Under the pieces are notes generated by a model that worked only from the letters and a program-made list of their open reading frames with translations, had not been told where the DNA came from and ran no database searches. Positions 1 through 59,558 of a stretch of 64,000 bases of DNA are shown one piece after another. Position 1 is the first letter of the stretch; each line of letters opens with the position of its first letter. The DNA lies in contig CAVRQT010000002.1 of assembly GCA_963723515.1 (NCBI GenBank), forward strand, positions 224,001 to 288,000, given 5' to 3'. The translations under genes were made by a program, and so were the position numbers. Source of the stretch: Vulcanimicrobiota bacterium. GTDB taxonomy: Bacteria; Vulcanimicrobiota; Vulcanimicrobiia; Vulcanimicrobiales; Vulcanimicrobiaceae.

Positions 1-305
1 TCAAGCGGCGTCCGACTTCACCAAACCTGAAGCGCCTCATCGAGCCCTGCGAACTGGCGTTAATTCGGCGGCTTTCAAGCCTGCCCCGAACGATCCAAAA
101 CGTTGTCGATCAATTTGCGCCGCATCGTTTGACGCAATACGCGCGTGACGTCGCGGCGGACTTTCATCAATTTTATACGGAATGCCGCATCTTGGTTGAG
201 GAGCCGGAACTGCGCTTGGCACGTTTGGCGCTCTGCATCGCCGCACGCACCGTGTTGGCGCGCGTGCTTCAGCTAATGGACGTCACCGCCCCGGAATCAA
301 TGTAG
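1..305 (+). CDS. argS: Arginine--tRNA ligase, C-terminal anticodon-binding domain (partial; absent from ORF track)
   Basis: Manual translation of frame +3 gives ...ELALIRRLSSLP...APHRLTQYARDVAADFHQFYTECRIL...RLARLALCIAARTVL...DVTAPESM*, a typical ArgRS C-terminus. Stop TAG at 303-305. Confidence 0.9.
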   Translation, partial: KRRPTSPNLKRLIEPCELALIRRLSSLPRTIQNVVDQFAPHRLTQYARDVAADFHQFYTECRILVEEPELRLARLALCIAARTVLARVLQLMDVTAPESM

Positions 306-1527
306 CCTTTAAGTGCTGCACGCTAATTAACGAGACTGTCACCCTGAGCTTGATCGCCGCTTCGAAGGCTAAGGATGACAACTCTTGCGACTGAGCTTTC
401 GCGTATGCTTTCTTCGAAAGCCGGCGCGGCTCGGGACGCAGATCGAGCGGCTCAACGGGATGCCCTGTCAGCCACGGCGCGACGAAATAGCGCCAGAGAA
501 TCTTAATGAGCGCGGCTGCGGGAATGCCCAAAATCAGTCCCGCAAACCCGAAGAGCTCACCGCCGGCGAACACCGCGAACATGACGCCGATCGGTGAGAC
601 GCCCACCGACGTACCCATGATCTTTGGAACGAGAACGTTGTCGCTGATGCGCGCCACAACGAAGAGGATCAACTGCACCCAAAGGATCATCCAACCGCCT
701 TGCGGAGCCGCAACGACAGCGCCGATCAGGTGGGCGGCGATCATCCCGACGATCGGAATCGCATAAGCGATCGCGCTTATCACACCGAGAATGAGCGCGA
801 ATTTGAAGCCCACGATCGCAAGCAACACCGCAATCACGATACCGGTAATCGCGCTCACGATTATTTGTCCGGCGATGAAACTGCCGAACATGTGCGTCAC
901 TTCATTGGAAAGCGACCGCGCAGTGGCGCGCCTTGACGTTGGGAAAAGCGCCACGAAGCCTTCCAAAATTTGCGTTCGCTGCAGCAAGAAGAAACAAGAG
1001 AGAATCAGCGCTGAAATCGCGATGAAGATCGCAGTAGCGGCACCGAGTAAGACGCTGCCCAGGGACGAAACGGAAGACGTTACGAGCGCCGAAACTTTAG
1101 CGCTAACGAGCTGCTGAAGGTTCAGAACCCCAGCAGGCAGATTCGCGTGCGCAAAACGTTGCCGCAGCATCGTCTCCCCGCCGAGCATCCAGCCTTGCGT
1201 CGACTTCAGGTATGCCGGCGCGTTTTGCACGAGCGCCTGACCTTGCTCGATCGTGGCGGGCAAGACGATCAACGCACCGATTGCCATTACGAGCAAAAGC
1301 ACGATGTAAACAAATGCGATCGCGAGTCCGCGCTTAACGCCCCGTGATTCTAAGTGGGTGACAATCGGCTGCGCTCCAAACGCGATGAAGGCAGCCACGA
1401 CGAAGATCGTGATCGTGCGCGGGATGTGCGATGCAAGCCAGAGCGCAAAAATCGCCGCGACGATACCGGCCGCGGTCAGGGCGATGCGGCGCATCGTCTG
1501 CGGGCTTACGGCGTTCGGCATAAGCAT
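283..1527 (-). CDS. AI-2E family (PerM-like) transporter
   Basis: Multi-TM protein with 'DNVLVPKIMG..VGVSP' and 'GGELFGFAGLILGIPAAA' motifs. Likely start ATG 1527 or 1521. The C-terminal tail reads through a REP-like hairpin and overlaps argS, so the true end is uncertain. Confidence 0.85.
   Translation of the reverse strand: MLMPNAVSPQTMRRIALTAAGIVAAIFALWLASHIPRTITIFVVAAFIAFGAQPIVTHLESRGVKRGLAIAFVYIVLLLVMAIGALIVLPATIEQGQALVQNAPAYLKSTQGWMLGGETMLRQRFAHANLPAGVLNLQQLVSAKVSALVTSSVSSLGSVLLGAATAIFIAISALILSCFFLLQRTQILEGFVALFPTSRRATARSLSNEVTHMFGSFIAGQIIVSAITGIVIAVLLAIVGFKFALILGVISAIAYAIPIVGMIAAHLIGAVVAAPQGGWMILWVQLILFVVARISDNVLVPKIMGTSVGVSPIGVMFAVFAGGELFGFAGLILGIPAAALIKILWRYFVAPWLTGHPVEPLDLRPEPRRLSKKAYAKAQSQELSSLAFEAAIKLRVTVSLISVQHLKATLIPGR
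337..380. repeat. REP-like imperfect palindrome (TGTCACCCTGAGC family)
   Basis: TGTCACCCTGAGCTT...AGGCTAAGGATGACA; related copies at 15147, 15184, 16469 and 20510. Confidence 0.7.
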
Positions 1528-1580
1528 CGTCTCTGCGAGATACTGCCGTGCGGCCGGAAAGTTCCGACGCCATTTGGTCT

Positions 1581-1683
1581 GACATCGCACGATGCGCGAT
1601 GTCTGGCGCTCCGGCTCCCTTTTGCCACGATGCGGCAAAAAGGGCCTACGCGCCCCCGCCCAAACTGTCGCGGGCGGGCCCCC
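1581..1683 (-). ncRNA. Three-hairpin structured element, copy C (candidate novel RNA motif or repeat)
   Basis: Minus strand: GGGGG CCCGCCC-GCGACAGTTT-GGGCGGG GGCGC-GTA-GGCCCTTTTTGCC-GCATCGT-GGCAAAAGGGAGCC-GGA-GCGCC A GACATCGC-GCATCGT-GCGATGTC. Aligns with the copies at 4817 and 58322. Confidence 0.65.
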
Positions 1684-1684
1684 A

Positions 1685-2254
1685 TCATATTCGGCGCGAT
1701 CCCGGGTCGCTCAGCGGCACACCGGCTTTACACTGTGGACATGCGTCGGCTTCATATGAGTCCAACGGGAGATTCAGCAATGCAAACGTTTGCACGCCGA
1801 AGTCGACCGGCGCTCGCTGCACGATCGCTCCAACGCCGACAACTTGCGCACCACGATCGCGTCCTAGCTGCACAACTTCGCGTACCGATCGTCCCGTCGT
1901 AATGACGTCCTCCACGACGAGCGCGCGATCTTGCGAAGTCAGCGCAAAATCCCGACGCAGCGCCGGCCTTCCCTCTTCTTTCTCGACGAAAATCGCCTTC
2001 GTTCCGAGCACGCGCGCGACTTCGTAGCCCAGCAAAATGCCGCCGACGGCAGCGCTGAGCACCACCGTTGGATCGCAGTCTTCAAAATGCCGGGCGATTG
2101 CGTCCGCCAGCGGCGCGAGCAACTTCGGATCTTCTAAGATGCGGAACTTTTGCACGAAACGGTCGCTGTGCCGTCCTGAACTCAACAAGAAGTGGCCGCT
2201 TTGCAAAGCGCCGCGCCCTTGCAGCTCTTCGAAGAGATCCGTAACGGCGCTCAT
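1685..2254 (-). CDS. pyrE: Orotate phosphoribosyltransferase
   Basis: [11 protein letters not shown] motif, PRPP loop VVEDVITTG, pyr operon context. Confidence 0.95.
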
Positions 2255-2970
2255 GCCACTTCGACGCCTTGCATCTCATCCAGAATCGCGCGCGCCGCGG
2301 CGCGCGGATCATCGGACTCGGTGATCGGCCGGCCGACAACGAGATAATCAGCACCGGCCGATACCGCTTGCGCGGGCGTCGTGACCCGCTTTTGGTCGCC
2401 GTGTACGGTACCAAGGGGACGAATCGCGGGCGTCAACGTCAGGAAATCTTGCCCGAAAAACTGCTTGATGTCGGCAACTTCTTGCGCGCTGCAGACGATG
2501 CCGCTGCATCCGGCGTCACGGGCGAGGGCCGCGAGCCGAATCGCGTTCTCTCCCGGACCGCCCGAGAGGCCGAGTTCGCGCAAATCTTCGTTTCCAATGC
2601 TCGTGAGAATCGTGACGGCAAAAAGATAAGGCACCGTCACTCCTAATTCGCTCGCGCGCGCGTCCGCGGCCTCAACGGCCGCCGCCATCATTTCGTTTCC
2701 GCCGAGCGCATGCACCGTGATGATGTGGGCTCCAGGACGTACGAGGGCTCGCACACCGGCGGCGACGGTATGCGGAATGTCGTGCAGTTTTGCGTCCGCA
2801 AAGTAGCGTACGTCGCGTTGCTCGATGTAGTCGAGAAGCGGTCCGCCGTAGCCGTAGAACGCTTCGAGGCCAACTTTGAAAATGACGTCGAGTTCGTAGA
2901 GCTCATCGATCAACGACCGCGCTCGCTCGAATGTATCGACGTCCAGCGCGACGATCAGCGATGCACTCAA
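2251..2970 (-). CDS. pyrF: Orotidine-5'-phosphate decarboxylase
   Basis: [25 protein letters not shown] and VVGRPIT motifs. Confidence 0.95.
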
Positions 2971-3920
2971 CCCTCGTCTCCTTCGTATTGATGCGCGCTC
3001 GAGAAACCGATGTTCGCTTTGCCGATGATCTCCTTGAGCGAGCTTAGGTTGCGTTGCTGCAAATAGCCGCGCAGCCCTTCGACGATGCGTAGTGGCGCAC
3101 GCGGATCAGTAAAATTGGCGGTGCCGATGCAGACCGCCGTAGCGCCCGCCAAGAAGAACTCCAGCGCATCGTTTGTCGTTTCGATCCCGCCTTGTCCGAC
3201 GATCGGAATGTGCACCGCACGCGCGACTTCATACACGGCCAGCACCGCGATTGGGCGGATCGCGGCCCCGGAGAGGCCGCCTGCGACGTTGCCGAGCCGT
3301 GGCCGCCACGCATCGACGTCGATCGACATCGCGCGCACCGTGTTGATCACGGCAAGGGCATCTGCGCCGGCTTCTTGCGCCTCTAGCGCGATCGCCGCAA
3401 TGTCGGTGACGTTTGGCGACAGCTTGACGATCAGCGGCTTATCGGTGACGCTTCGCCCAAGCGCAACGACTTTTTTTGTCAGTCGCGGATCGCAGGCGAA
3501 GGTCTCGCCTTCGGATGCGACGTTCGGACATGAGATGTTGACCTCGATCGCGGCGATTTCTTTACGCCGCGCCAATCGCTCGGTGATGTAACCGTAATCG
3601 TCGACCGAAAAGCCGGCAACACTGCCGATGATCGCGCACGGACGGTCGGCGAATTTGCGAACCTCGTGCTCGAGGTACCAATCAATGCCCGGATTCTGCA
3701 GTCCGATCGCGTTGAGGAATCCCGAGGGCGTCGGCATCAGACGCGGCGTCGCATTTCCGAGCCGAGGCCAGCGCGTGACGCTCTTGAGCACGATGCCGCC
3801 GACCTTGGAAAGATCGACGAACGGCGCGTACTCAGCTCCTGAACCGTAACAGCCGCTCGCCATCAAGGTCGGAAGCGGCAATTGCAACTTGCCGAGCGAG
3901 ACGGAGAGGTCGATCACCAT
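2967..3920 (-). CDS. pyrD: Dihydroorotate dehydrogenase family 1B, catalytic subunit
   Basis: [22 protein letters not shown] and GGLSG motifs. Confidence 0.95.
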
Positions 3921-4748
3921 CGCAACTCATGCGCCCAGAAGACCGGGCCTTCTTTGCAGATTCGCGCGTATACGGGATCGCTTCTCACGCCGTCGGTGGA
4001 AAGCATCGGAAAGCGCGGCGCTTGATCGCTGCCGCGCTCGATCGGGATGACGCAGCCCCAGCATGCGCCCACGCCACAGGCAAATGTTTCCTCCAATGAA
4101 AGTTGGGCGCGCGTTTTCATTTGCGCCGCAACTTTGCCGACGGCATGCAGCATCGGCGACGGTCCGCAGGCCAAAATCAAATCCGGCACATCATCGGTTT
4201 GCGCGAGCAAATCCGTCACGAATCCGCCGTGGCCGTAGGAACCGTCATCGGTGGCGCAATGAACGGTGCAGCCGGCTTGCGCAAATTTTTCTGCATCCAC
4301 GAGCAGCGCGCTCGTTCTCGCGCCATAGTAGAGCCGAACCCGCACGCCGTTCTGGATCAAGCGCGCGCGCCGCGAGCAGCACCGACGCGATGCCGACGCC
4401 GCCCGCGACGATGGCCACGTTTTTCATCCCACGCTCCAGATCGAAGCCGTTGCCTAGGGGCCCAAATAGATCGAGCGTTTCGCCCGGCGCAACATCGGCA
4501 AGTTCGCGGGTGCGCGGACCACAAACCAGCACCATGAAACTCGCACGCTCGCCTTCCGCTTCATAGACGCCAAGCGCGACGGATGCACGTTCTCCCGACG
4601 GCGGAATCATCATAACGAAATGTCCCGGACGCGTCACAGCGACAAGTTGCGGGGCGTGTAAACCGATGACGACGACGCCGGGAGCGAGTTCGGTGCGGTC
4701 GAGCACCGTGGTTGTATGCACCGCCGCGCTCGATTGGACCAAGGGCAT
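3914..4748 (-). CDS. pyrK: Dihydroorotate dehydrogenase electron-transfer subunit (frameshift near 4360)
   Basis: N-terminal half has GPLGNGF and AGGVGIA. C-terminal half has ACGPSPM and CGVGACWGC...C ([2Fe-2S] motif). Split over two frames. Confidence 0.9.
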
Positions 4749-4816
4749 CGGGGCGGAAGCTTCTCGGCAACGATTAGGCAACCATGCGCCAAGAAGATAT
4801 GCTAAATGCGACGGTC

Positions 4817-4920
4817 GGGGGCCCATCCGCGAAGTTTGGATGGGGGCGCGAAGTTCGTTTCTGTCGCATCGTGACAGAAACGAAACGGAGCGCCAAGCGT
4901 CAGGCGAAGTCTGACGCTAT
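4817..4920 (+). ncRNA. Three-hairpin structured element, copy A (candidate novel RNA motif or repeat)
   Basis: GGGGG CCCATCC-GCGAAGTTT-GGATGGG GGCGC-GAA-GTTCGTTTCTGTC-GCATCGT-GACAGAAACGAAAC-GGA-GCGCC A AGCGTCAGGC-GAA-GTCTGACGCT AT. Confidence 0.65.
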
Positions 4921-5039
4921 AAAGAGGGATGCGATTCACCGAATTTTAAGTTTGCTACGAGAAATAGAGAACCGGTTGAATCTCTGAACCGTTATTAGGG
5001 TAGAACGGTTAGAAAACAAAGAAAGGGGGGTCCAGGAAC

Positions 5040-5180
5040 ATGGCAGGTCTGATGGTCTTTAAATCGTTAGCCGACGCGCTAAGAGCGGGCTACCAAGTCT
5101 ACGACCGCACTGCGGACGGATATCTCGTTCGTACACGAACTGCAGCTGGATGGGCGATAGCTCTGGTTTCCTGCAAGTGA
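5040..5180 (+). CDS. Small hypothetical protein, 46 aa (MAGLMVFKSLADALRAGYQVYDRTADGYLVRTRTAAGWAIALVSCK)
   Basis: ATG preceded by a purine-rich AAAGAAAGGGGGG/AGGA stretch and followed by an intrinsic terminator. Below the ORF-track length cutoff. Confidence 0.7.
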   Translation: MAGLMVFKSLADALRAGYQVYDRTADGYLVRTRTAAGWAIALVSCK

Positions 5181-5205
5181 CCCCTGGATCGCAGGACTCA
5201 TAAGC

Positions 5206-5240
5206 AAAGCGGCGTCGAAAGACGCCGCTTTAAATTTATT
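5206..5240 (+). terminator. Intrinsic terminator, probably bidirectional
   Basis: AAAGCGGCGTC-GAAA-GACGCCGCTTT followed by an AT-rich tail, between convergent genes. Confidence 0.8.
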
Positions 5241-15146: not shown

Positions 15147-15212
15147 TGTCATCCTGAGCCTGTCGAAGGATGACTTAAGGTAATGTCACATTTCGACAAG
15201 CTCAATGTGACA
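15147..15212. repeat. Inverted REP-like doublet
   Basis: TGTCATCCTGAGCCTGTCGAAGGATGAC, followed by the reverse complement of TGTCACATTGAGCTTGTCGAAATGTGACA. Confidence 0.8.
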
Positions 15213-16468: not shown

Positions 16469-16493
16469 TGTCACCCTGAGCTTGTCGAAGGGC
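16469..16493. repeat. REP-like element
   Basis: TGTCACCCTGAGCTTGTCGAAGGGC in the 40-nt spacer between DUF1800 and DUF1501. Confidence 0.75.
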
Positions 16494-34441: not shown

Positions 34442-34514
34442 GGGGGTGTAGCTCAGCTGGTAGAGCACTTGCTTCGCATGTAAGGGGTCAGCGGTTCGAG
34501 TCCGCTCACCTCCA
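34442..34514 (+). tRNA. tRNA-Ala(CGC), CCA not encoded
   Basis: Cloverleaf with acceptor GGGGGTG/CACCTCC including G3:U70, anticodon loop TT-CGC-AT and T-loop TTCGAGT. Confidence 0.97.
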
Positions 34515-56240: not shown

Positions 56241-56756
56241 TTACTTCTGCGGAATCTCGCTCACGACTTGCAGTTTTATGCCGGGCGGGAGAACACCACG
56301 CTGCGCGTTCGCTTCCCAACCGCGCGGAAAACCCATGTTGCGATGCAGATTTCCGTCAAGCGTGAAGATGGTCTGAATTCCCTCGAGCGTTGATGTCTGA
56401 TAGCGCGCGTTGATCGGTCCGGTTTTTGCAAAGGACGCAATCAAACGGAGGTGGCGTTCCGTCTTTGCGATCTCCGGTGCGTGGGTGACAAAGATCTTGA
56501 CGGCTTCCAGTTCAAGCGCGCTCAGCGCATCTTTGGGCGATGTGCCGTCTGCGATGAATCGCTCAACGTACGGCGTAGCATCCCAAAAAATTACGCCGCC
56601 GAAGATGTTGCTGTGTGTTTGAATGATCCGCGGCGCCGGCATCGGCGCTTGCACCGCGACGACGGCTGGTGGAAACATGAAGAGCACGGTGGCACAAAAT
56701 TGCCGTTGCAAAGCGCGGCGTCCTGCGTTCTTAGGGATGGTGCGGGGCAGGAACAA
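56241..56756 (-). CDS. Hypothetical protein, probably secreted (start uncertain)
   Basis: Fills the gap in the operon between DUF2723 and the NHL protein; hydrophobic N-terminal stretch. Confidence 0.55.
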   Translation of the reverse strand: MFLPRTIPKNAGRRALQRQFCATVLFMFPPAVVAVQAPMPAPRIIQTHSNIFGGVIFWDATPYVERFIADGTSPKDALSALELEAVKIFVTHAPEIAKTERHLRLIASFAKTGPINARYQTSTLEGIQTIFTLDGNLHRNMGFPRGWEANAQRGVLPPGIKLQVVSEIPQK

Positions 56757-58254
56757 CGCGGTAGATCGCCGGCGATTCGCCTCCCGTAGGCTCTAGCCTC
56801 ATCCCATCAAGCGAGAACACGCGGTCGCCAAACGGCTTGAAGTAAATGACATAAACCGGCCGGTTGCGTTGCCACCGCTTAACGTATTCCGCGATCTCAT
56901 CCGGCTCCGCGGACACGATGACGCGCCCTCCGAGCCGGTGTTCGACATAACTTGCATAAGCGAGCGGCGTCGCGTAAATCCAGCTCGCAACGATAATGCT
57001 GCGATCCGGCGTTTCGCGCAGCGCACGATCGATGAATGCGTCGCCGGTGTGATCTGCGTTTTGCGCGAAAGTCGCACGGTTGGCCGCGAACGTGTAGCCG
57101 ACACTGAAAAACAACAATAGCGCGGCTACCCCAAGCGCGACCGCGGCAATGCGCAAACGAGCTTTCAAAAACGTCATTACCGCTTGCGCGCCATAGCCGG
57201 TAAAGAGCGCGAGCACCCAATATGCCGTCAAAAAGTACCGATCGAAATCCGTTTCGATCGCATAGCTCAAAGCGAACGGAACGCCGGCCACAACGATCAG
57301 CATCAAACCGAGCGCTTTGAAAACATCCTTAACGATCACAGCCAACATGCCGAGCAGCATCAAAGCGATGGCAATGACTGAAAACTCGGCGTAAATCTTA
57401 GCGCCAAACTCCTGCGCCATCGACGGATACAGCGAAGGGCGGAAAATCGCGATCAGTGCGTCCCATTTGGCATAGTACGATCCAAGAACCGCCCGCAGAA
57501 AACCGTGCCAATCCGCCGGGTGACCCCAGTTCCAAAAAGCTTGGCTCGGCGGCAGCCCCAGCGCCTGCGTTGGATCGAGCGTGTGAGCCGCAACATACGC
57601 GCTCCGTAGCGGCATGTAGAAGTACAGCAAGAGCGGCGCCAGTACGAGGAGCAGCGCCGTCAGCATAGCCCGCGCCGGAAAACGTTTCGCTCGCGCGGGC
57701 GGCAAAAACAACAAAATCAGCACACCCGGAATGGCCCAAATCATGACCGGATGCGTCGCCGCCGCAAGTCCCATGCACAGCGCAGCCGCGTAAAGCGGTT
57801 GCGTAGACCCCGTTGCACGCGCGCGAAGCGCGGCCCAAATCGTTGCTCCGATCAACAGAATGGCAAGCGCATGCACTTCAGCACGCGTTCCGCGCGTCCA
57901 GGCCACAACGCCGAATGCAAACGTCCACGCGCAAAGACATGCGATCAGGTCATCGACGCCCTCATCCCGCGAAGCCAAAAACACCAACCATGCTGCGCCG
58001 GCCATCGCGATTGCGCTCATCAGCGACATGCGCCAAGCAACGCTGAAGATCGCAACAGCATGCGAGAAGACATATCCGAGCAGGATGAACAACGGGAAGC
58101 CGGTGGGATGCGCGATTCCGAAAATGTATGGAACGGTTTGCATTTCGCCGGTGTCCCAAAAGCCGACGCTCGGCGTCAAACTCCAGATATACACAACCAA
58201 CGGTACGCAAAATGCCGCGGCGGAAAACGCTCGGCGCGTGAAGACCTCGTTCAT
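56731..58254 (-). CDS. DUF2723 / TMEM260-family GT-C membrane protein (putative protein O-mannosyltransferase)
   Basis: 'PSVGFWDTGE', 'IAHPTGFPLF', 'AEVHAL', 'YMPLRS' and 'NWGHP' motifs; multiple TMs. Confidence 0.85.
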   Translation of the reverse strand: MNEVFTRRAFSAAAFCVPLVVYIWSLTPSVGFWDTGEMQTVPYIFGIAHPTGFPLFILLGYVFSHAVAIFSVAWRMSLMSAIAMAGAAWLVFLASRDEGVDDLIACLCAWTFAFGVVAWTRGTRAEVHALAILLIGATIWAALRARATGSTQPLYAAALCMGLAAATHPVMIWAIPGVLILLFLPPARAKRFPARAMLTALLLVLAPLLLYFYMPLRSAYVAAHTLDPTQALGLPPSQAFWNWGHPADWHGFLRAVLGSYYAKWDALIAIFRPSLYPSMAQEFGAKIYAEFSVIAIALMLLGMLAVIVKDVFKALGLMLIVVAGVPFALSYAIETDFDRYFLTAYWVLALFTGYGAQAVMTFLKARLRIAAVALGVAALLLFFSVGYTFAANRATFAQNADHTGDAFIDRALRETPDRSIIVASWIYATPLAYASYVEHRLGGRVIVSAEPDEIAEYVKRWQRNRPVYVIYFKPFGDRVFSLDGMRLEPTGGESPAIYRVVPAPHHP

Positions 58255-58321: not shown

Positions 58322-58425
58322 GGCGCCCGCCCGCGAAGTTTGGGCGGGGGCGCGTAGGTCATTTTCGTCGCATCGTGACGAAAGTGAACCGGAGCGCCAA
58401 GCGTTTCGCGATAGTGAGACGCTAT
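58322..58425 (+). ncRNA. Three-hairpin structured element, copy B (candidate novel RNA motif or repeat)
   Basis: GGCG CCCGCCC-GCGAAGTTT-GGGCGGG GGCGC-GTA-GGTCATTTTCGTC-GCATCGT-GACGAAAGTGAACC-GGA-GCGCC A AGCGTTTCGC-GATA-GTGAGACGCT AT. Confidence 0.65.
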
Positions 58426-58439
58426 CTAAATAAGGAGAA

Positions 58440-59558
58440 GTGATGAGCCGAGTACGCGCCCTGGTCGGCACGCGCAAAGGTGCGTTCGTGTTGACATCGG
58501 ATGGCAAGCGTGAAGAGTGGGACATCAGCGGCCCTTTCTTTGCCGGCTGGGAAATCTATCACGTCAAAGGCTCGGCCGCCGACCCTAATCGTCTCTACGC
58601 TTCACAGACGAGCGGCTGGTTCGGGCAATTGATGCAGCGTTCGAACGATGGCGGTGCGACATGGGAAGCGGTCGGAAACGAGTTTGCGTACGATGGTCCC
58701 ATCGGAACGCATCAATGGTACGACGGCACGCCGCGGCCGTGGGAATTTAAGCGCGTTTGGCATCTTGAACCTTCGGCTGCCGATCCGGACGTCGTTTACG
58801 CGGGCATCGAAGACGCCGCAATCTTTCGCTCGAGTGATGGCGGCAGCAGTTGGCACGAGTTACCTGCGTTGCGCAACCATGGGTCCGGTCCCGCATGGCA
58901 GCCCGGAGCCGGCGGGATGTGTCTGCATACGATCATCTTCGATCCCATAAATCCGCAACGGATCTTCGTGGCAATCTCGGCCGCCGGCGCCTTCCGCACG
59001 GATGACGGCGGCAAGACGTGGCAGCCGATTAACCGTGGCTTGCAATCACAGTATATTCCAGATCCGACCGCCGAGGTCGGTCATTGCGTCCATCGGATTG
59101 CAATGCACAAAGCTCGACCGAACGTGCTCTTCATGCAAAAGCATTGGGACGTGATGCGCAGCGACGATGCAGGCGATTCATGGCGTGAGATCAGCGGCAA
59201 TCTGCCGACCGACTTCGGCTTCCCAATCGACGTGCACGCCCATGAACCGGACGTGGTTTACGTCGTGCCGATCAAGAGCGATTCCGAACACTTTCCGCCC
59301 GATGGCAAACTCCGTGTCTACCGCAGCCGCACCGGCGGCGACGAATGGGAGCCGCTGACGAACGGGCTGCCCCAGCGGGATTGTTACGTCAACGTGCTGC
59401 GTGATGCGATGGCGGTTGACTCGCTGGATCGATGCGGAATCTATTTCGGAACGACGGGCGGCCAAGTGTATGCGTCAGCAAACGAGGGTGATACGTGGGA
59501 CGCGATCGTTCGCGACCTTCCGCCCGTGCTTTCCGTCGAGGTACAGACATTGCCGTGA
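58440..59558 (+). CDS. BNR/Asp-box repeat beta-propeller (sialidase-like)
   Basis: VGTRKG and Asp-boxes [49 protein letters not shown]. Confidence 0.9.

What the first reader, a model, noticed from the sequence alone, without database searches (positions are those of the whole stretch)
4817..4920. Candidate novel ~100-nt structured RNA or ssDNA motif present in three covarying copies
Seen: three intergenic copies (A 4817-4920 +, B 58322-58425 +, C 1581-1683 -) share one architecture. P1 is a 7-bp stem with loop GCGA(C)AGTTT. P2 is GGCGC/GCGCC, then a 3x3 purine-rich internal loop (GAA or GTA opposite GGA), then a 13-bp stem with one bulged A capped by an invariant GCATCGT. P3 is an 8-10-bp hairpin. 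Stem sequences change while pairing is kept: P1 CCCATCC/GGATGGG vs CCCGCCC/GGGCGGG; the P2 arms differ in all three copies; P3 differs in all three. The non-canonical stem pairs are G-U wobbles in this orientation and would be A-C mismatches in the other, which implies single-stranded function with fixed polarity. Each copy has a same-sense gene downstream. The P1 loop (GCGA) could pair with the P2 loop (TCGT). Inference: an unrecognised cis-regulatory RNA, an sRNA family, or a REP/BIME-like element (GTAG and GGAG flank the P2 hairpin, as in RAYT-associated REPs). I do not recognise it as any known riboswitch.
Basis: partly seen in the sequence, partly recalled or inferred. Interest (0 to 1): 0.9.

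Follow-up and report, generated by a model that had tools for sequence, protein, structure and literature searches.

The report
Three-hairpin interspersed repeat, new family
The three look-alike stretches belong to a new family of about twenty copies of a 105-base, three-hairpin repeat scattered between genes of this small genome; it comes and goes between related species and is carried on messenger RNAs, so it is a structured repeat and not a riboswitch.

Summary
Copies A, B and C share a three-hairpin fold, and this strand folds 10-19 kcal/mol better than its complement. They are three of about 20 sites in this 2.1 Mb genome.

On 75 copies from this genome, relatives and metagenomes, 96.5% of pair cells are paired and 26 of 38 pairs change on both sides. 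G-U outnumbers A-C 307 to 17. No Rfam family matches.

It is not a gene-class-specific leader:
- Flanking genes are unrelated housekeeping genes.
- Five of the 20 sites lie between convergent genes.
- Copies A and C are missing from the same sites in a same-genus genome, and 4 of that genome's 5 copies sit at sites empty here.
- Head-to-tail arrays occur.
- The element is confined to one family of the phylum: 24 of 71 genomes, against 0 of 79 elsewhere.

Orientation follows transcription, not replication. No RAYT, TnpB, reverse transcriptase, DDE or IS110 transposase was found, and no terminal inverted repeats or target duplications.

Best reading: a new structured interspersed repeat that works like REP, BOX or ERIC elements. 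It is co-transcribed in sense and probably acts as an mRNA-stabilising or processing module. That function is inferred, not shown.

The parts
4817..4920 (+). Copy A of the three-hairpin element. 5' G-run 4817-4821; P1 4822-4844; P2 4845-4894 (basal 5 bp, 3x3 internal loop, 15-bp upper stem with one bulge); P3 4896-4918.
   Evidence: MFE -60 kcal/mol, z -7.3. R1 scores 126.2 bits. The copy is missing from the same site in same-genus genome G001.
58322..58425 (+). Copy B. It ends 11-14 nt before the start of a BNR/Sortilin-like ORF, with an AAGGAG Shine-Dalgarno-like motif (my reading of the sequence) right after P3.
   Evidence: -63.3 kcal/mol. R1 scores 122 bits.
1581..1683 (-). Copy C, between a phosphoribosyltransferase gene (pyrE-like) and an AI-2E transporter gene, in sense with both.
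   Evidence: -67.3 kcal/mol. R1 scores 118.8 bits. The copy is missing from the same site in G001.
3914..4826 (-). PyrK-like gene, read as two overlapping ORFs (3914-4360 and 4245-4826). Copy A lies just upstream of its start, on the other strand.
   Evidence: ORFs. DHODB_Fe-S_bind has E 6e-14 on 3917-4360. The upstream ORF has no Pfam hit; calling it PyrK is my reading from synteny with the DHO_dh, OMPdecase and Pribosyltran genes.
5040..5180 (+). 46-aa ORF, 119 nt downstream of copy A in the same sense.
   Evidence: ORF; no Pfam hit. The stretch 4921-5231 is 91% identical in G001, against 73-79% for its neighbours.
5206..5231 (+). Canonical terminator-like hairpin with a T-run, after the 46-aa ORF.
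   Evidence: 11 pairs, 7 G-C.
58440..59558 (+). BNR/Sortilin-like ORF downstream of copy B.
   Evidence: Sortilin-Vps10 E 3e-15, BNR E 3.5e-10.
56731..58254 (-). TMEM260-like O-mannosyltransferase ORF, divergent from copy B.
   Evidence: E 4e-18.
1685..2254 (-). Phosphoribosyltransferase ORF. Its stop codon lies 1-2 nt before the 5' G-run of copy C.
   Evidence: Pribosyltran E 7e-10.
283..1638 (-). AI-2E family transporter ORF downstream of copy C. Its true start is probably inside this longest ORF.
   Evidence: E 3e-59; the domain starts at residue 60.

Best explanation
The element is a new family of small structured interspersed repeats, about 105 nt long. It consists of a 5' G-run followed by three consecutive G+C-rich hairpins. 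Each hairpin is usually capped by G-C-NNN-G-U, that is a C-G pair and a G-U pair closing a triloop.

It is restricted to one family of a poorly studied phylum. The phylum is probably Vulcanimicrobiota/Eremiobacterota, judged from one protein-atlas lead.

Shown:
- Copies are gained or lost between related species.
- They form head-to-tail arrays.
- They sit in ordinary intergenic spacers next to unrelated housekeeping genes.
- They are oriented with the sense of transcription.
- They keep their pairing through compensatory changes, also at orthologous sites.

Inferred:
- The element is co-transcribed as part of mRNAs, in 3' ends, intercistronic spacers and 5' leaders. The selected form is the folded sense-strand RNA.
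- Its most likely effect is that of a portable mRNA structural module: a barrier to exonucleases and/or a processing site that sets the stability of the neighbouring cistrons, as REP/BIME, ERIC, Correia and BOX elements do.
- It is not an efficient terminator in sense. It lies between promoter-like sequence and highly expressed genes, and within 11-14 nt of a start codon.
- How it spreads is unknown. No transposase-like gene is linked to it.
For: Copy number: R1 finds 23 matches at 20 sites in G000, 18 of them full length with E <= 3e-11. These include a tandem array at C2:214368-214656.

Structure: on 75 copies (74 distinct), 96.5% of 2804 cells are paired. 26 of 38 pairs change on both sides, in 477 cells, against at most 72 cells in the slid controls. 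0 of 500 shuffles reach the observed values. The same holds on 40 copies.

Polarity: G-U 307 against A-C 17. The sense strand folds 10-19 kcal/mol better than the complement.

Not class-specific: Pfam on 115, 88 and 28 flanking ORFs shows unrelated housekeeping genes and no transposase.

Gain and loss: A and C are missing from the syntenic G001 contig. Of 5 G001 copies, 4 are at sites that have no copy in G000 (one of them keeps a P3-like hairpin), and 1 site is shared, upstream of rimP-nusA.

Range: 24 of 71 genomes of family f1 carry it, and 0 of 79 genomes of 20 other families of the phylum.

Orientation at the 20 G000 sites (my reading):
- 11 co-directional, sense
- 1 co-directional, antisense
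- 1 ambiguous
- 5 convergent
- 2 divergent

Outside G000, 10 distinct co-directional sites have Pfam hits on both neighbours, and all 10 are sense: amtB>DUF1761, pnp>phyH, rpmA>obg, map>rpsM, dnaG>rpoD, plsX>degV, PMT>yebC, fpg>rpsA, fusA>tuf and hpt>ftsH. Against the leading strand the split is only about 11:7.

Constraint in place:
- The shared rimP-site copy is 89% identical between G000 and G001, against 78% for the locus as a whole.
- The acyl-CoA dehydrogenase site has 5 compensatory, 3 one-sided and 0 broken pairs.
- In three genomes with a single match each, the fusA-tuf copy keeps P1 and P3 through several double changes.

Not a terminator or promoter: no terminator-like or sigma-70-like site is called at A, B or C.
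Against: - No expression data exist. No sequencing run was listed, so transcription of the element is inferred from position and orientation only.
- Nothing tests the stabiliser or processing function. A purely selfish element whose fold is needed only for copying would give much of the same picture.
- No mobilising enzyme, terminal inverted repeat or target duplication was found, so 'mobile' rests on presence/absence alone. Precise deletion cannot be told from insertion without an outgroup.
- Gene calls come from a crude longest-ORF caller. At 6 of the 11 sense sites in G000 only one neighbour has a Pfam hit.
- Candidate antisense sites exist: C2:205870, L105/L119 and L043.
- Alignments A3 and A7 were fitted to the model, which leans the pair counts towards the structure.
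- Orthology of the compared sites is assumed from neighbouring gene families. Across the 11 pairwise site comparisons, 16 pairs are broken against 19 compensatory.
- The genome is 88% complete, so an unlinked mobilising gene could be missing from the assembly.
Confidence: 0.6

Rival explanations
1. A purely selfish, non-autonomous mobile element. The three-hairpin fold of one DNA or RNA strand is what an unidentified trans-acting enzyme recognises to copy it. The fold has no role for the host, and the orientation bias reflects either selection against harmful antisense insertions or transcription-coupled insertion.
For: - Presence/absence differs between same-genus genomes.
- Distribution within one family is patchy, with 1-20 copies per genome.
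- Head-to-tail arrays of nearly identical units occur.
- Truncated and P2-less derivatives and a solo P1 exist.
- The split of site types (12-13 co-directional, 5 convergent, 2-3 divergent, of 20) is close to the genome background of 64/18/18%. That is what tolerated insertions would give.
- The sense strand is G-rich (G 38.9%, C 28.4%). An antisense insertion would therefore give a C-rich transcript, which might be selected against. This last step is my inference.
Against: - No RAYT, TnpB, reverse transcriptase, DDE_Tnp_1 or IS110 gene was found in G000, and no RAYT in 5 other carriers.
- 6 filled/empty comparisons show no terminal inverted repeats or target duplications.
- Copies at shared sites are better conserved than their surroundings and change by compensatory pairs, also in genomes with a single match where gene conversion has no donor.
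- Copies sit inside core operons such as fusA-tuf, dnaG-rpoD and map-rpsM.
Confidence: 0.25
2. A trans-acting or protein-binding RNA family. Each copy, released from its host mRNA by processing, acts as an sRNA or as a sponge or landing pad for one RNA-binding protein that recognises the conserved apexes.
For: - All three hairpins share the same apex design. The G-U and C-G pairs next to the P2 and P3 loops are unchanged in 74 of 74 distinct copies.
- The loops are more conserved than the stems.
- Multi-copy and tandem arrangements are known for sRNA families. This point is recalled, not tested.
Against: - No promoter or terminator is conserved with the element.
- The apex triplets vary: P3 has GAA in 25 of 75 copies and AAC in 16 of 75. 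No obvious seed sequence is present.
- Copy number ranges from 1 to 20 and most genomes of the family have none. That is odd for a needed trans-acting RNA.
Confidence: 0.08
3. A riboswitch or other gene-class-specific cis-regulatory leader.
For: - A, B and some other copies lie in sense upstream of a gene: B at 11-14 nt, and L101 at 8 nt before a response-regulator gene.
- The fold is conserved and has a purine-rich internal loop.
Against: - Downstream genes share no function.
- Five of the 20 G000 sites are between convergent genes. In two of these the element fills the whole 104-106-nt gap.
- Copies are missing from orthologous leaders in a same-genus genome.
- Tandem arrays occur.
- There is no expression platform, and no terminator-like site was called.
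Confidence: 0.02
4. A member of a nuclease-linked repeat system: REP/REPIN with a RAYT, or an Ssn-type GIY-YIG nuclease with its hairpin repeats.
For: - Hairpin-based with a strand polarity, as those repeats are.
- G000 does encode a 100-aa single-domain GIY-YIG protein flanked on both sides by arrays of a short hairpin repeat.
- That repeat's core sits inside the P1 loop of four of the long-loop copies and of the solo P1 at C4:1174.
Against: - Y1_Tnp: 0 hits in G000 and 0 in 5 other carriers.
- The GIY-YIG gene is flanked by a different repeat. No three-hairpin copy lies within 1.5 kb of either small GIY-YIG gene.
- With this query, the GIY-YIG protein was not found in carriers G001, G011, G015, G031 and G035. 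It was found in many genomes without the element, for example G006, G007, G010, G014, G016 and G025.
- Copy number is 20 or fewer. There are no inverted pairs.
Confidence: 0.05

Closest known systems
REP/BIME elements of enterobacteria and pseudomonads (with RAYT transposases)
   Same: They are intergenic and G+C-rich, fold into stable hairpins and are co-transcribed with neighbouring genes. They are reported to act on mRNA stability and as attenuators: BIMEs as attenuators per passages of PMC3049150, and the REP/RAYT background per the abstract listing of PMC2817692. Tandem and composite arrangements occur.
   Different: A REP is a single palindrome and usually exceeds 100 copies per genome, per the abstract of PMC2817692; a length of 20-40 nt and a RAYT gene flanked by REPs are recalled, not read. 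In BIMEs, REPs alternate in orientation. Here the unit is 105 nt with three different hairpins, has 20 or fewer copies and forms head-to-tail arrays only. Stems covary instead of being conserved in sequence, and no Y1_Tnp gene was found.
BOX, RUP and SPRITE repeats of Streptococcus pneumoniae
   Same: These are small interspersed repeats with extensive predicted RNA structure. They mirror the coding strand, are found between convergent genes, are restricted to close relatives, and are thought to affect genes they are co-transcribed with (passages of PMC3049150). BOX is modular with variable module number, which compares with the P2-less copies and P1-loop variants here.
   Different: There is no sequence similarity and the phylum is different. 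BOX and RUP have terminal inverted repeats that pair with each other, and SPRITE looks like a terminator with a U-rich tract. This element has no terminal inverted repeats and no U-tract. Its helices also covary far more.
ERIC/IRU and Correia (NEMIS) elements
   Same: These are ~100-150-nt transcribed repeats whose folded RNA is reported to be a target of RNase E or RNase III, with orientation-dependent effects on neighbouring mRNA (as cited in passages of PMC3049150).
   Different: Those elements are long imperfect palindromes with terminal inverted repeats; Correia elements also make target duplications (recalled). The element here is three independent hairpins in series. RNase cleavage of it is untested.
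Ssn (GIY-YIG) nucleases with NTS/SRM hairpin repeats
   Same: A strand-specific hairpin repeat read as single-stranded nucleic acid, with the nuclease gene flanked by its own repeats (sections 6, 7 and 10 of PMC11893778). G000 has such a layout for another, far more abundant hairpin repeat. That repeat's core is nested in the P1 loop of some copies.
   Different: The three-hairpin element is not what flanks the GIY-YIG gene. Its phyletic pattern does not follow that gene. Whether the G000 protein belongs to the Ssn clade (cd10448) was not tested.
Mycobacterial MIRU repeats
   Same: From recall only: 40-100-bp units in intergenic spacers of operons, oriented with transcription, and in tandem arrays.
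   Different: From recall only: MIRUs are thought to carry small ORFs that couple translation and are not defined by a covarying RNA fold. Not tested here.

Membership tests
Any Rfam 15 family | A match to a curated covariance model at or near the gathering score | tested here: not met
   Whole window at gathering threshold: only a tRNA at 34442-34514. Copy A region in E-value mode: only mir-4854 at E 6.5 and 15 bits, against a gathering score of 100. Nine loci holding copies, at E <= 1: one unrelated miRNA hit elsewhere in the locus.
REP/REPIN-RAYT | A RAYT (Y1_Tnp, PF01797) gene in the genome, typically flanked by REPs | tested here: not met
   0 hits in G000 (88% complete). The control rang in 6 of 14 named genomes. 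0 hits in G001, G017, G031, G104 and G162.
REP/REPIN-RAYT | A single short palindrome (20-40 nt), high copy number, inverted pairs (BIME/REPIN) | tested here: not met
   The unit is ~105 nt with three distinct hairpins. It occupies 20 sites. Arrays are head-to-tail.
MITE | Terminal inverted repeats and target-site duplications | tested here: not met
   Six filled/empty site comparisons show no duplication and no inverted ends. The 5' junctions carry 0-18 nt of unrelated filler. Intergenic divergence of about 78% limits resolution.
MITE | A related autonomous IS with a transposase in the same genomes | tested here: not met
   No DDE_Tnp_1, IS110 C-terminal domain, TnpB or RVT_1 in G000. The one weak Transposase_20 hit is a ComEA-like HHH protein. 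The Y2_Tnp search is uninformative because its control rang nowhere. Other transposase families were not searched.
Ssn (GIY-YIG) / SRM repeat system | Repeats flank the nuclease gene, and the nuclease co-occurs with the repeat across genomes | tested here: not met
   The small GIY-YIG gene at C3:290982-291284 is flanked by a different hairpin repeat. R2 finds no copy in L129 or L130. The GIY-YIG query finds nothing in five carriers and hits many non-carriers.
Riboswitch / gene-class-specific leader | A conserved position upstream of functionally related genes | tested here: not met
   Neighbours are unrelated. 5 of 20 sites are between convergent genes. The element is missing from orthologous sites in G001.
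Intrinsic terminator / SPRITE-like | A G+C-rich hairpin followed by a U-tract | tested here: not met
   No terminator-like site is called at A, B or C, while canonical ones are called nearby. The element lies 11-14 nt before a start codon. It also lies in the spacer between fusA and the tuf start.
Structured interspersed repeat (functional class of REP, BOX, ERIC, Correia) | Multi-copy, intergenic, stable fold, variable presence among close relatives | tested here: met
Structured interspersed repeat (functional class) | Transcribed with neighbouring genes and changes their mRNA fate | not testable with these tools
   No sequencing run was listed. This needs RNA-seq, end mapping and reporter assays.

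The most novel reading that the evidence does not exclude
A mobile, self-contained functional RNA module. It spreads without any recognisable transposase, RAYT or reverse transcriptase, and then comes under purifying selection for its fold wherever it lands, including the core operons of translation and transcription (fusA-tuf, dnaG-rpoD, map-rpsM, rpmA-obg, upstream of rpsA, infC and rimP-nusA). On this reading the shared apex of the three hairpins is the docking site of a still unknown host protein, either an RNase or an RNA-binding regulator. Insertion would be coupled to transcription, for example into the exposed non-template strand. That would explain both the sense bias and the taste for highly expressed operons.
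Probability: 0.15. Interest if true: 0.8.

Novelty: new variant of a known kind. Interest (0 to 1): 0.45.

Why it matters
It adds a well-supported, strongly covarying RNA or single-strand structure to a phylum with almost no described non-coding elements. It also shows that a motif which looks like a riboswitch in three copies is in fact a repeat family.

The family is a clean natural experiment for two open questions:
- how structured repeats spread when no transposase is present;
- whether their fold is kept for the host or for the element.

It suits those questions because the same 105-nt fold is found at 3' ends, between cistrons and in leaders, with presence/absence pairs between close species and compensatory change at shared sites.

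For annotation, the covariance model keeps these copies from being mistaken for regulatory RNAs.

Tried and rejected
- Genome-collection scan: wasted by my own error. The second gap was set to 16-22 nt when the family has about 13. It returned 3 hits (Streptomyces, Eubacteriales and Planctomycetota records), none of which matches model R1. The phylum rests on one protein-atlas lead for NusA.
- Viral contigs: 1 pattern hit with no R2 match, so it is chance. The element was not found in that collection with this pattern.
- Sequencing runs: none was listed, and no RNA holder was listed.
- Hairpins capped by GC-NNN-GT as a genome-wide class: 262 in all, 36 of them inside the elements. Control apexes gave 146-508, so there is no excess outside the element. 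A few solo P2-like or P3-like hairpins exist (C3:486960, C3:1014238, C2:503150).
- A promoter in the TATAAA-like 3' tail: no sigma-70-like site was called. In filled/empty comparisons the tail belongs to the flank.
- Kissing between the P1/P3 and P2 loops: no co-variation.
- Replication-strand bias: only about 11:7.
- Weak Transposase_20 hit: it is a ComEA-like protein.
- Literature: three searches (the last on SsnA/NTS) and one preprint searched for terms found no description of this element. The only paper holding 'Eremiobacter', 'repeats' and 'intergenic' together is unrelated.
Full report
**Observation.** Over about 109 nt they align at 84% mean column identity.
- a 5' G-run;
- P1, 8 bp;
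- P2, made of a basal 5 bp, a 3x3 purine-rich internal loop and an upper stem of 15 bp with one bulge;
- P3, 10 bp.

That is 38 pairs, 13 of which already show compensatory changes. Each copy folds to this structure alone, at -60.0, -63.3 and -67.3 kcal/mol. The z-scores are -7.3, -7.5 and -6.8, and 0 of 200 shuffles fold as well. The reverse complements are 10-19 kcal/mol weaker.

**Not a known RNA family.** Rfam 15 at gathering threshold finds only a tRNA in the window. In E-value mode the region of copy A gives one noise hit. Nine loci with copies give nothing at the copies at E <= 1.

**How many copies, and where.** A covariance model built from the three copies (R1) finds 23 matches in the window's own genome. 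That genome is 2.11 Mb in 4 contigs, about 60% G+C and 88% complete. Eighteen matches are full length with E <= 3e-11. They lie at 20 sites. Notable variants:
- a head-to-tail array of two identical units plus a partial one (C2:214368-214656);
- two copies 40 nt apart after gyrB;
- two copies that lack P2;
- one degenerate copy;
- five copies with about 18 extra bases in the P1 loop;
- a solo P1 at C4:1174.

**Structure on a larger set.**
- On 40 copies from this genome and relatives, 97.5% of cells are paired and 27 of 38 pairs change on both sides.
- On 75 copies that also include metagenome contigs (74 distinct), 96.5% of 2804 cells are paired. 26 of 38 pairs change on both sides, in 477 cells, against 32-72 cells when the 3' partners are slid by 1-3 columns. 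0 of 500 shuffles reach any observed measure.
- These alignments were fitted to the model, which leans them towards the structure. The margin is nevertheless large, and the three-copy alignment that seeded the model was made by MAFFT.
- G-U cells number 307 and A-C cells 17. Outside the pairs where G-U is the usual state the counts are 68 and 17. The fold is therefore selected on this strand.
- All three hairpins usually end in the same apex: a G-U pair and a C-G pair around a triloop. The G-U and C-G next to the P2 and P3 loops are unchanged in 74 of 74 distinct copies. The triloops themselves vary: the P2 apex is AUC in 48 of 75, and the P3 apex is GAA in 25 and AAC in 16 of 75.

**Context in this genome.** I called ORFs with a crude longest-ORF script and checked 115 flanking ORFs against Pfam.
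- The neighbours share no function. They include a phosphoribosyltransferase and an AI-2E transporter, an MBL-fold hydrolase and LigT, GyrB, RimP-NusA, LigD and Ku, SHMT and a glycosyltransferase, an EVE-domain protein, a ComM-like ATPase, and carboxyltransferase.
- My reading of the 20 sites: 11 between co-directional genes with the element in sense, 1 in antisense (the P2-less copy at C2:205870), 1 ambiguous (the tandem array), 5 between convergent genes and 2 between divergent genes (A and B).
- In two convergent sites both genes have Pfam hits and the element fills the whole 104-106-nt gap (Aminotran_4 against beta-lactamase2; STAS against a CCG/4Fe-4S protein).
- The mix of site types is close to the genome background of 64% co-directional, 18% divergent and 18% convergent.
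- Copy A lies just upstream of a PyrK-like gene on the other strand. Its Fe-S domain is confirmed. A 46-aa ORF lies 119 nt downstream of A. That ORF is unusually conserved in a same-genus genome and is followed by a canonical terminator-like site.

**Context elsewhere.** A corrected sequence pattern found 55 metagenome stretches, on which R1 gives 48 matches.
- Pfam on 88 and 28 flanking ORFs from metagenomes and relatives again shows housekeeping genes and no transposase.
- Ten distinct co-directional sites have Pfam hits on both neighbours, and in all ten the element is in sense: amtB>DUF1761, pnp>phyH, rpmA>obg, map>rpsM, dnaG>rpoD, plsX>degV, a mannosyltransferase>yebC, fpg>rpsA, fusA>tuf and hpt>ftsH.
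- Adding the six such sites in G000 (5 sense, 1 antisense) gives 15 of 16 in sense. By my own arithmetic the two-sided binomial p is about 0.0005. The selection of sites was by eye.
- Two candidate antisense sites exist where one or both neighbours lack a Pfam hit (L105/L119, L043).
- From the GC skew I place the origin near C2:640 kb, beside gyrB, and the terminus near C3:695 kb. Against the leading strand the copies split only about 11:7. Orientation therefore follows transcription, not replication.

**Gain and loss.**
- A 7-kb query from the window finds one syntenic contig in the same-genus genome G001. It aligns to window positions 1-1565, 1681-4798 and 4921-5231. The two gaps are copies C and A.
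- Conversely, of the 5 copies in G001, 4 lie at sites that have no copy in G000 (one of these keeps a P3-like hairpin). One site is shared, upstream of rimP-nusA.
- The six filled/empty comparisons show no target duplication and no inverted ends. There are 0-18 nt of unrelated filler at the 5' junction. The A/T-rich tail after P3 belongs to the flank.

**Taxonomic range.**
- With R1, 9 of 36 other genomes of the same family (f1) have matches, against 0 of 5 and 0 of 19 in two other families of the class. Two of the nine, G022 and G029, are unpublished genomes; without them the count is 7 of 34.
- With the broader model R2 on an even sample of the phylum, 24 of 71 f1 genomes have matches and 0 of 79 genomes of 20 other families do.
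- Copy number elsewhere is 1-10, so G000 has the most. Several genomes have arrays of 2-3 units with periods of 110-120 nt.
- The phylum is probably Vulcanimicrobiota/Eremiobacterota, by a protein-atlas row for NusA. This is a lead, not a test.

**Constraint in place.**
- The shared rimP-site copy is 89% identical between G000 and G001, while the locus as a whole is 78% identical.
- Across 11 pairwise comparisons at 9 presumed orthologous sites I count 19 compensatory, 14 one-sided-kept and 16 broken pairs. At the acyl-CoA dehydrogenase site the counts are 5, 3 and 0.
- In three genomes of one genus that each have a single match, the copy lies between fusA and tuf, 17-25 nt before the tuf start codon. 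It keeps P1 and P3 through several double changes. With one copy per genome, gene conversion has no donor.

This argues that the fold matters where the element sits. The argument is not proof, because orthology is assumed from the neighbouring genes.

**What could move it.**
- G000 has no Y1_Tnp, no TnpB zinc-ribbon domain, no RVT_1 and no DDE_Tnp_1.
- It has no IS110 C-terminal domain. The one weak hit is a ComEA-like protein.
- The Y2_Tnp search is uninformative because its control rang nowhere.
- Five other carriers have no Y1_Tnp either.
- Other transposase families were not searched, and G000 is 88% complete.

**A second repeat, and a nuclease.** Looking for nucleases, I found two small single-domain GIY-YIG ORFs.
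- One of them (C3:290982-291284) is flanked on both sides, in inverted orientation, by arrays of a short hairpin repeat. The core of this repeat occurs at least 128 times in G000.
- This is the layout described for Ssn nucleases and their repeats (sections 6, 7 and 10 of PMC11893778).
- That core sits inside the P1 loop of four of the five long-loop copies and of the solo P1 at C4:1174; the fifth (C4:26453) carries a more diverged version. P1 therefore tolerates a nested insertion, or attracts one.
- The three-hairpin element itself is not linked to this gene. No copy lies in either GIY-YIG locus.
- With this query the protein is not found in carriers G001, G011, G015, G031 and G035, but it is found in many genomes without the element.

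**How it most likely works.**

Shown: the element is a multi-copy, family-restricted unit with a strand-specific fold. It is gained or lost between close species, lies in ordinary spacers in the sense of transcription, and keeps its fold.

Inferred:
- It is transcribed as part of mRNAs, and the sense RNA is the selected form.
- It cannot be an efficient terminator in sense. It lies 11-14 nt before a start codon (copy B) and in the spacer just before the tuf start, and it has no U-tract.
- One role fits 3' ends, intercistronic spacers and leaders alike: a stable structural module that blocks exonucleases or offers a processing site, as reported for REP/BIME, ERIC and Correia elements (as cited in passages of PMC3049150).
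- The sense strand is G-rich (G 38.9%, C 28.4%). An antisense copy would give a C-rich transcript, which may be selected against. This is speculation.

The selfish-element rival explains much of the same evidence and is not exclusive of this reading.

**Comparison and verdict.** The element works like the structured interspersed repeats of other bacteria, but it fails the membership tests for REP/RAYT, MITE, Ssn/SRM, terminator-like repeats and riboswitches. I found no description of it in three literature searches and one preprint searched for terms. I class it as a new variant of a known kind.

Noticed in passing
G000 C3:290780-291560 (locus L129:1220-2000); copies in the window at 15189-15207 (+) and 16474-16492 (-): A 100-aa single-domain GIY-YIG ORF (PF01541, E 2e-14) is flanked on both sides, in inverted orientation, by arrays of a short hairpin repeat (8-bp stem, 11-nt loop). 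The core CTTCGACAAGCTCAG occurs at least 128 times in the genome, in several subfamilies. The layout resembles Ssn nuclease/SRM or RAYT/REP systems. The same core is nested in the P1 loop of some three-hairpin copies.
   Followed up: partly
G000 C3:112533-112811 (L130:1480-1758 +): A second small GIY-YIG ORF (92 aa, PF01541, E 3e-9). Its surroundings were not examined for repeats.
   Followed up: no
window 3914-4826 (-): The PyrK-like gene reads as two overlapping ORFs in different frames (3914-4360 with the Fe-S domain, and 4245-4826). This may be a frameshift or an assembly error.
   Followed up: no
window 4955-5015 and 5040-5231 (+): Three GAACCGKTT-like direct repeats lie upstream of a 46-aa ORF with no Pfam hit. 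The ORF is followed by a strong terminator-like hairpin at 5206-5231, flanked by an A-run and a T-run. The whole stretch is 91% identical in a same-genus genome, against 73-79% for its neighbours.
   Followed up: partly
G000 C2:501815-502985 (-): An AI-2E transporter reads as two adjacent ORFs (Pfam profile positions 130-322 and 3-94). It may be a broken gene.
   Followed up: no
G000 C2:205377-206511 (+): Two signal-peptidase S26 fragments (profile positions 43-154 and 78-168) flank the only clearly antisense, P2-less copy of the element. The gene may have been disrupted or duplicated there.
   Followed up: no
L139:1830-1990, L140 and L141 (fusA-tuf spacer of three genomes of genus g47): Upstream of the full element, the spacer holds a highly conserved promoter-like TTGACT box, a G/C hairpin with a T-run, a P3-like hairpin and, in two of the three genomes, an extra partial P1. 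This looks like the remains of an older tandem copy.
   Followed up: partly
G000 C2:636-640 kb and C3:~695 kb: The GC skew changes sign near dciA-gyrB (likely origin) and near C3:695 kb (likely terminus). Two element copies (C3:689069 and C3:693052) lie close to the presumed terminus.
   Followed up: no
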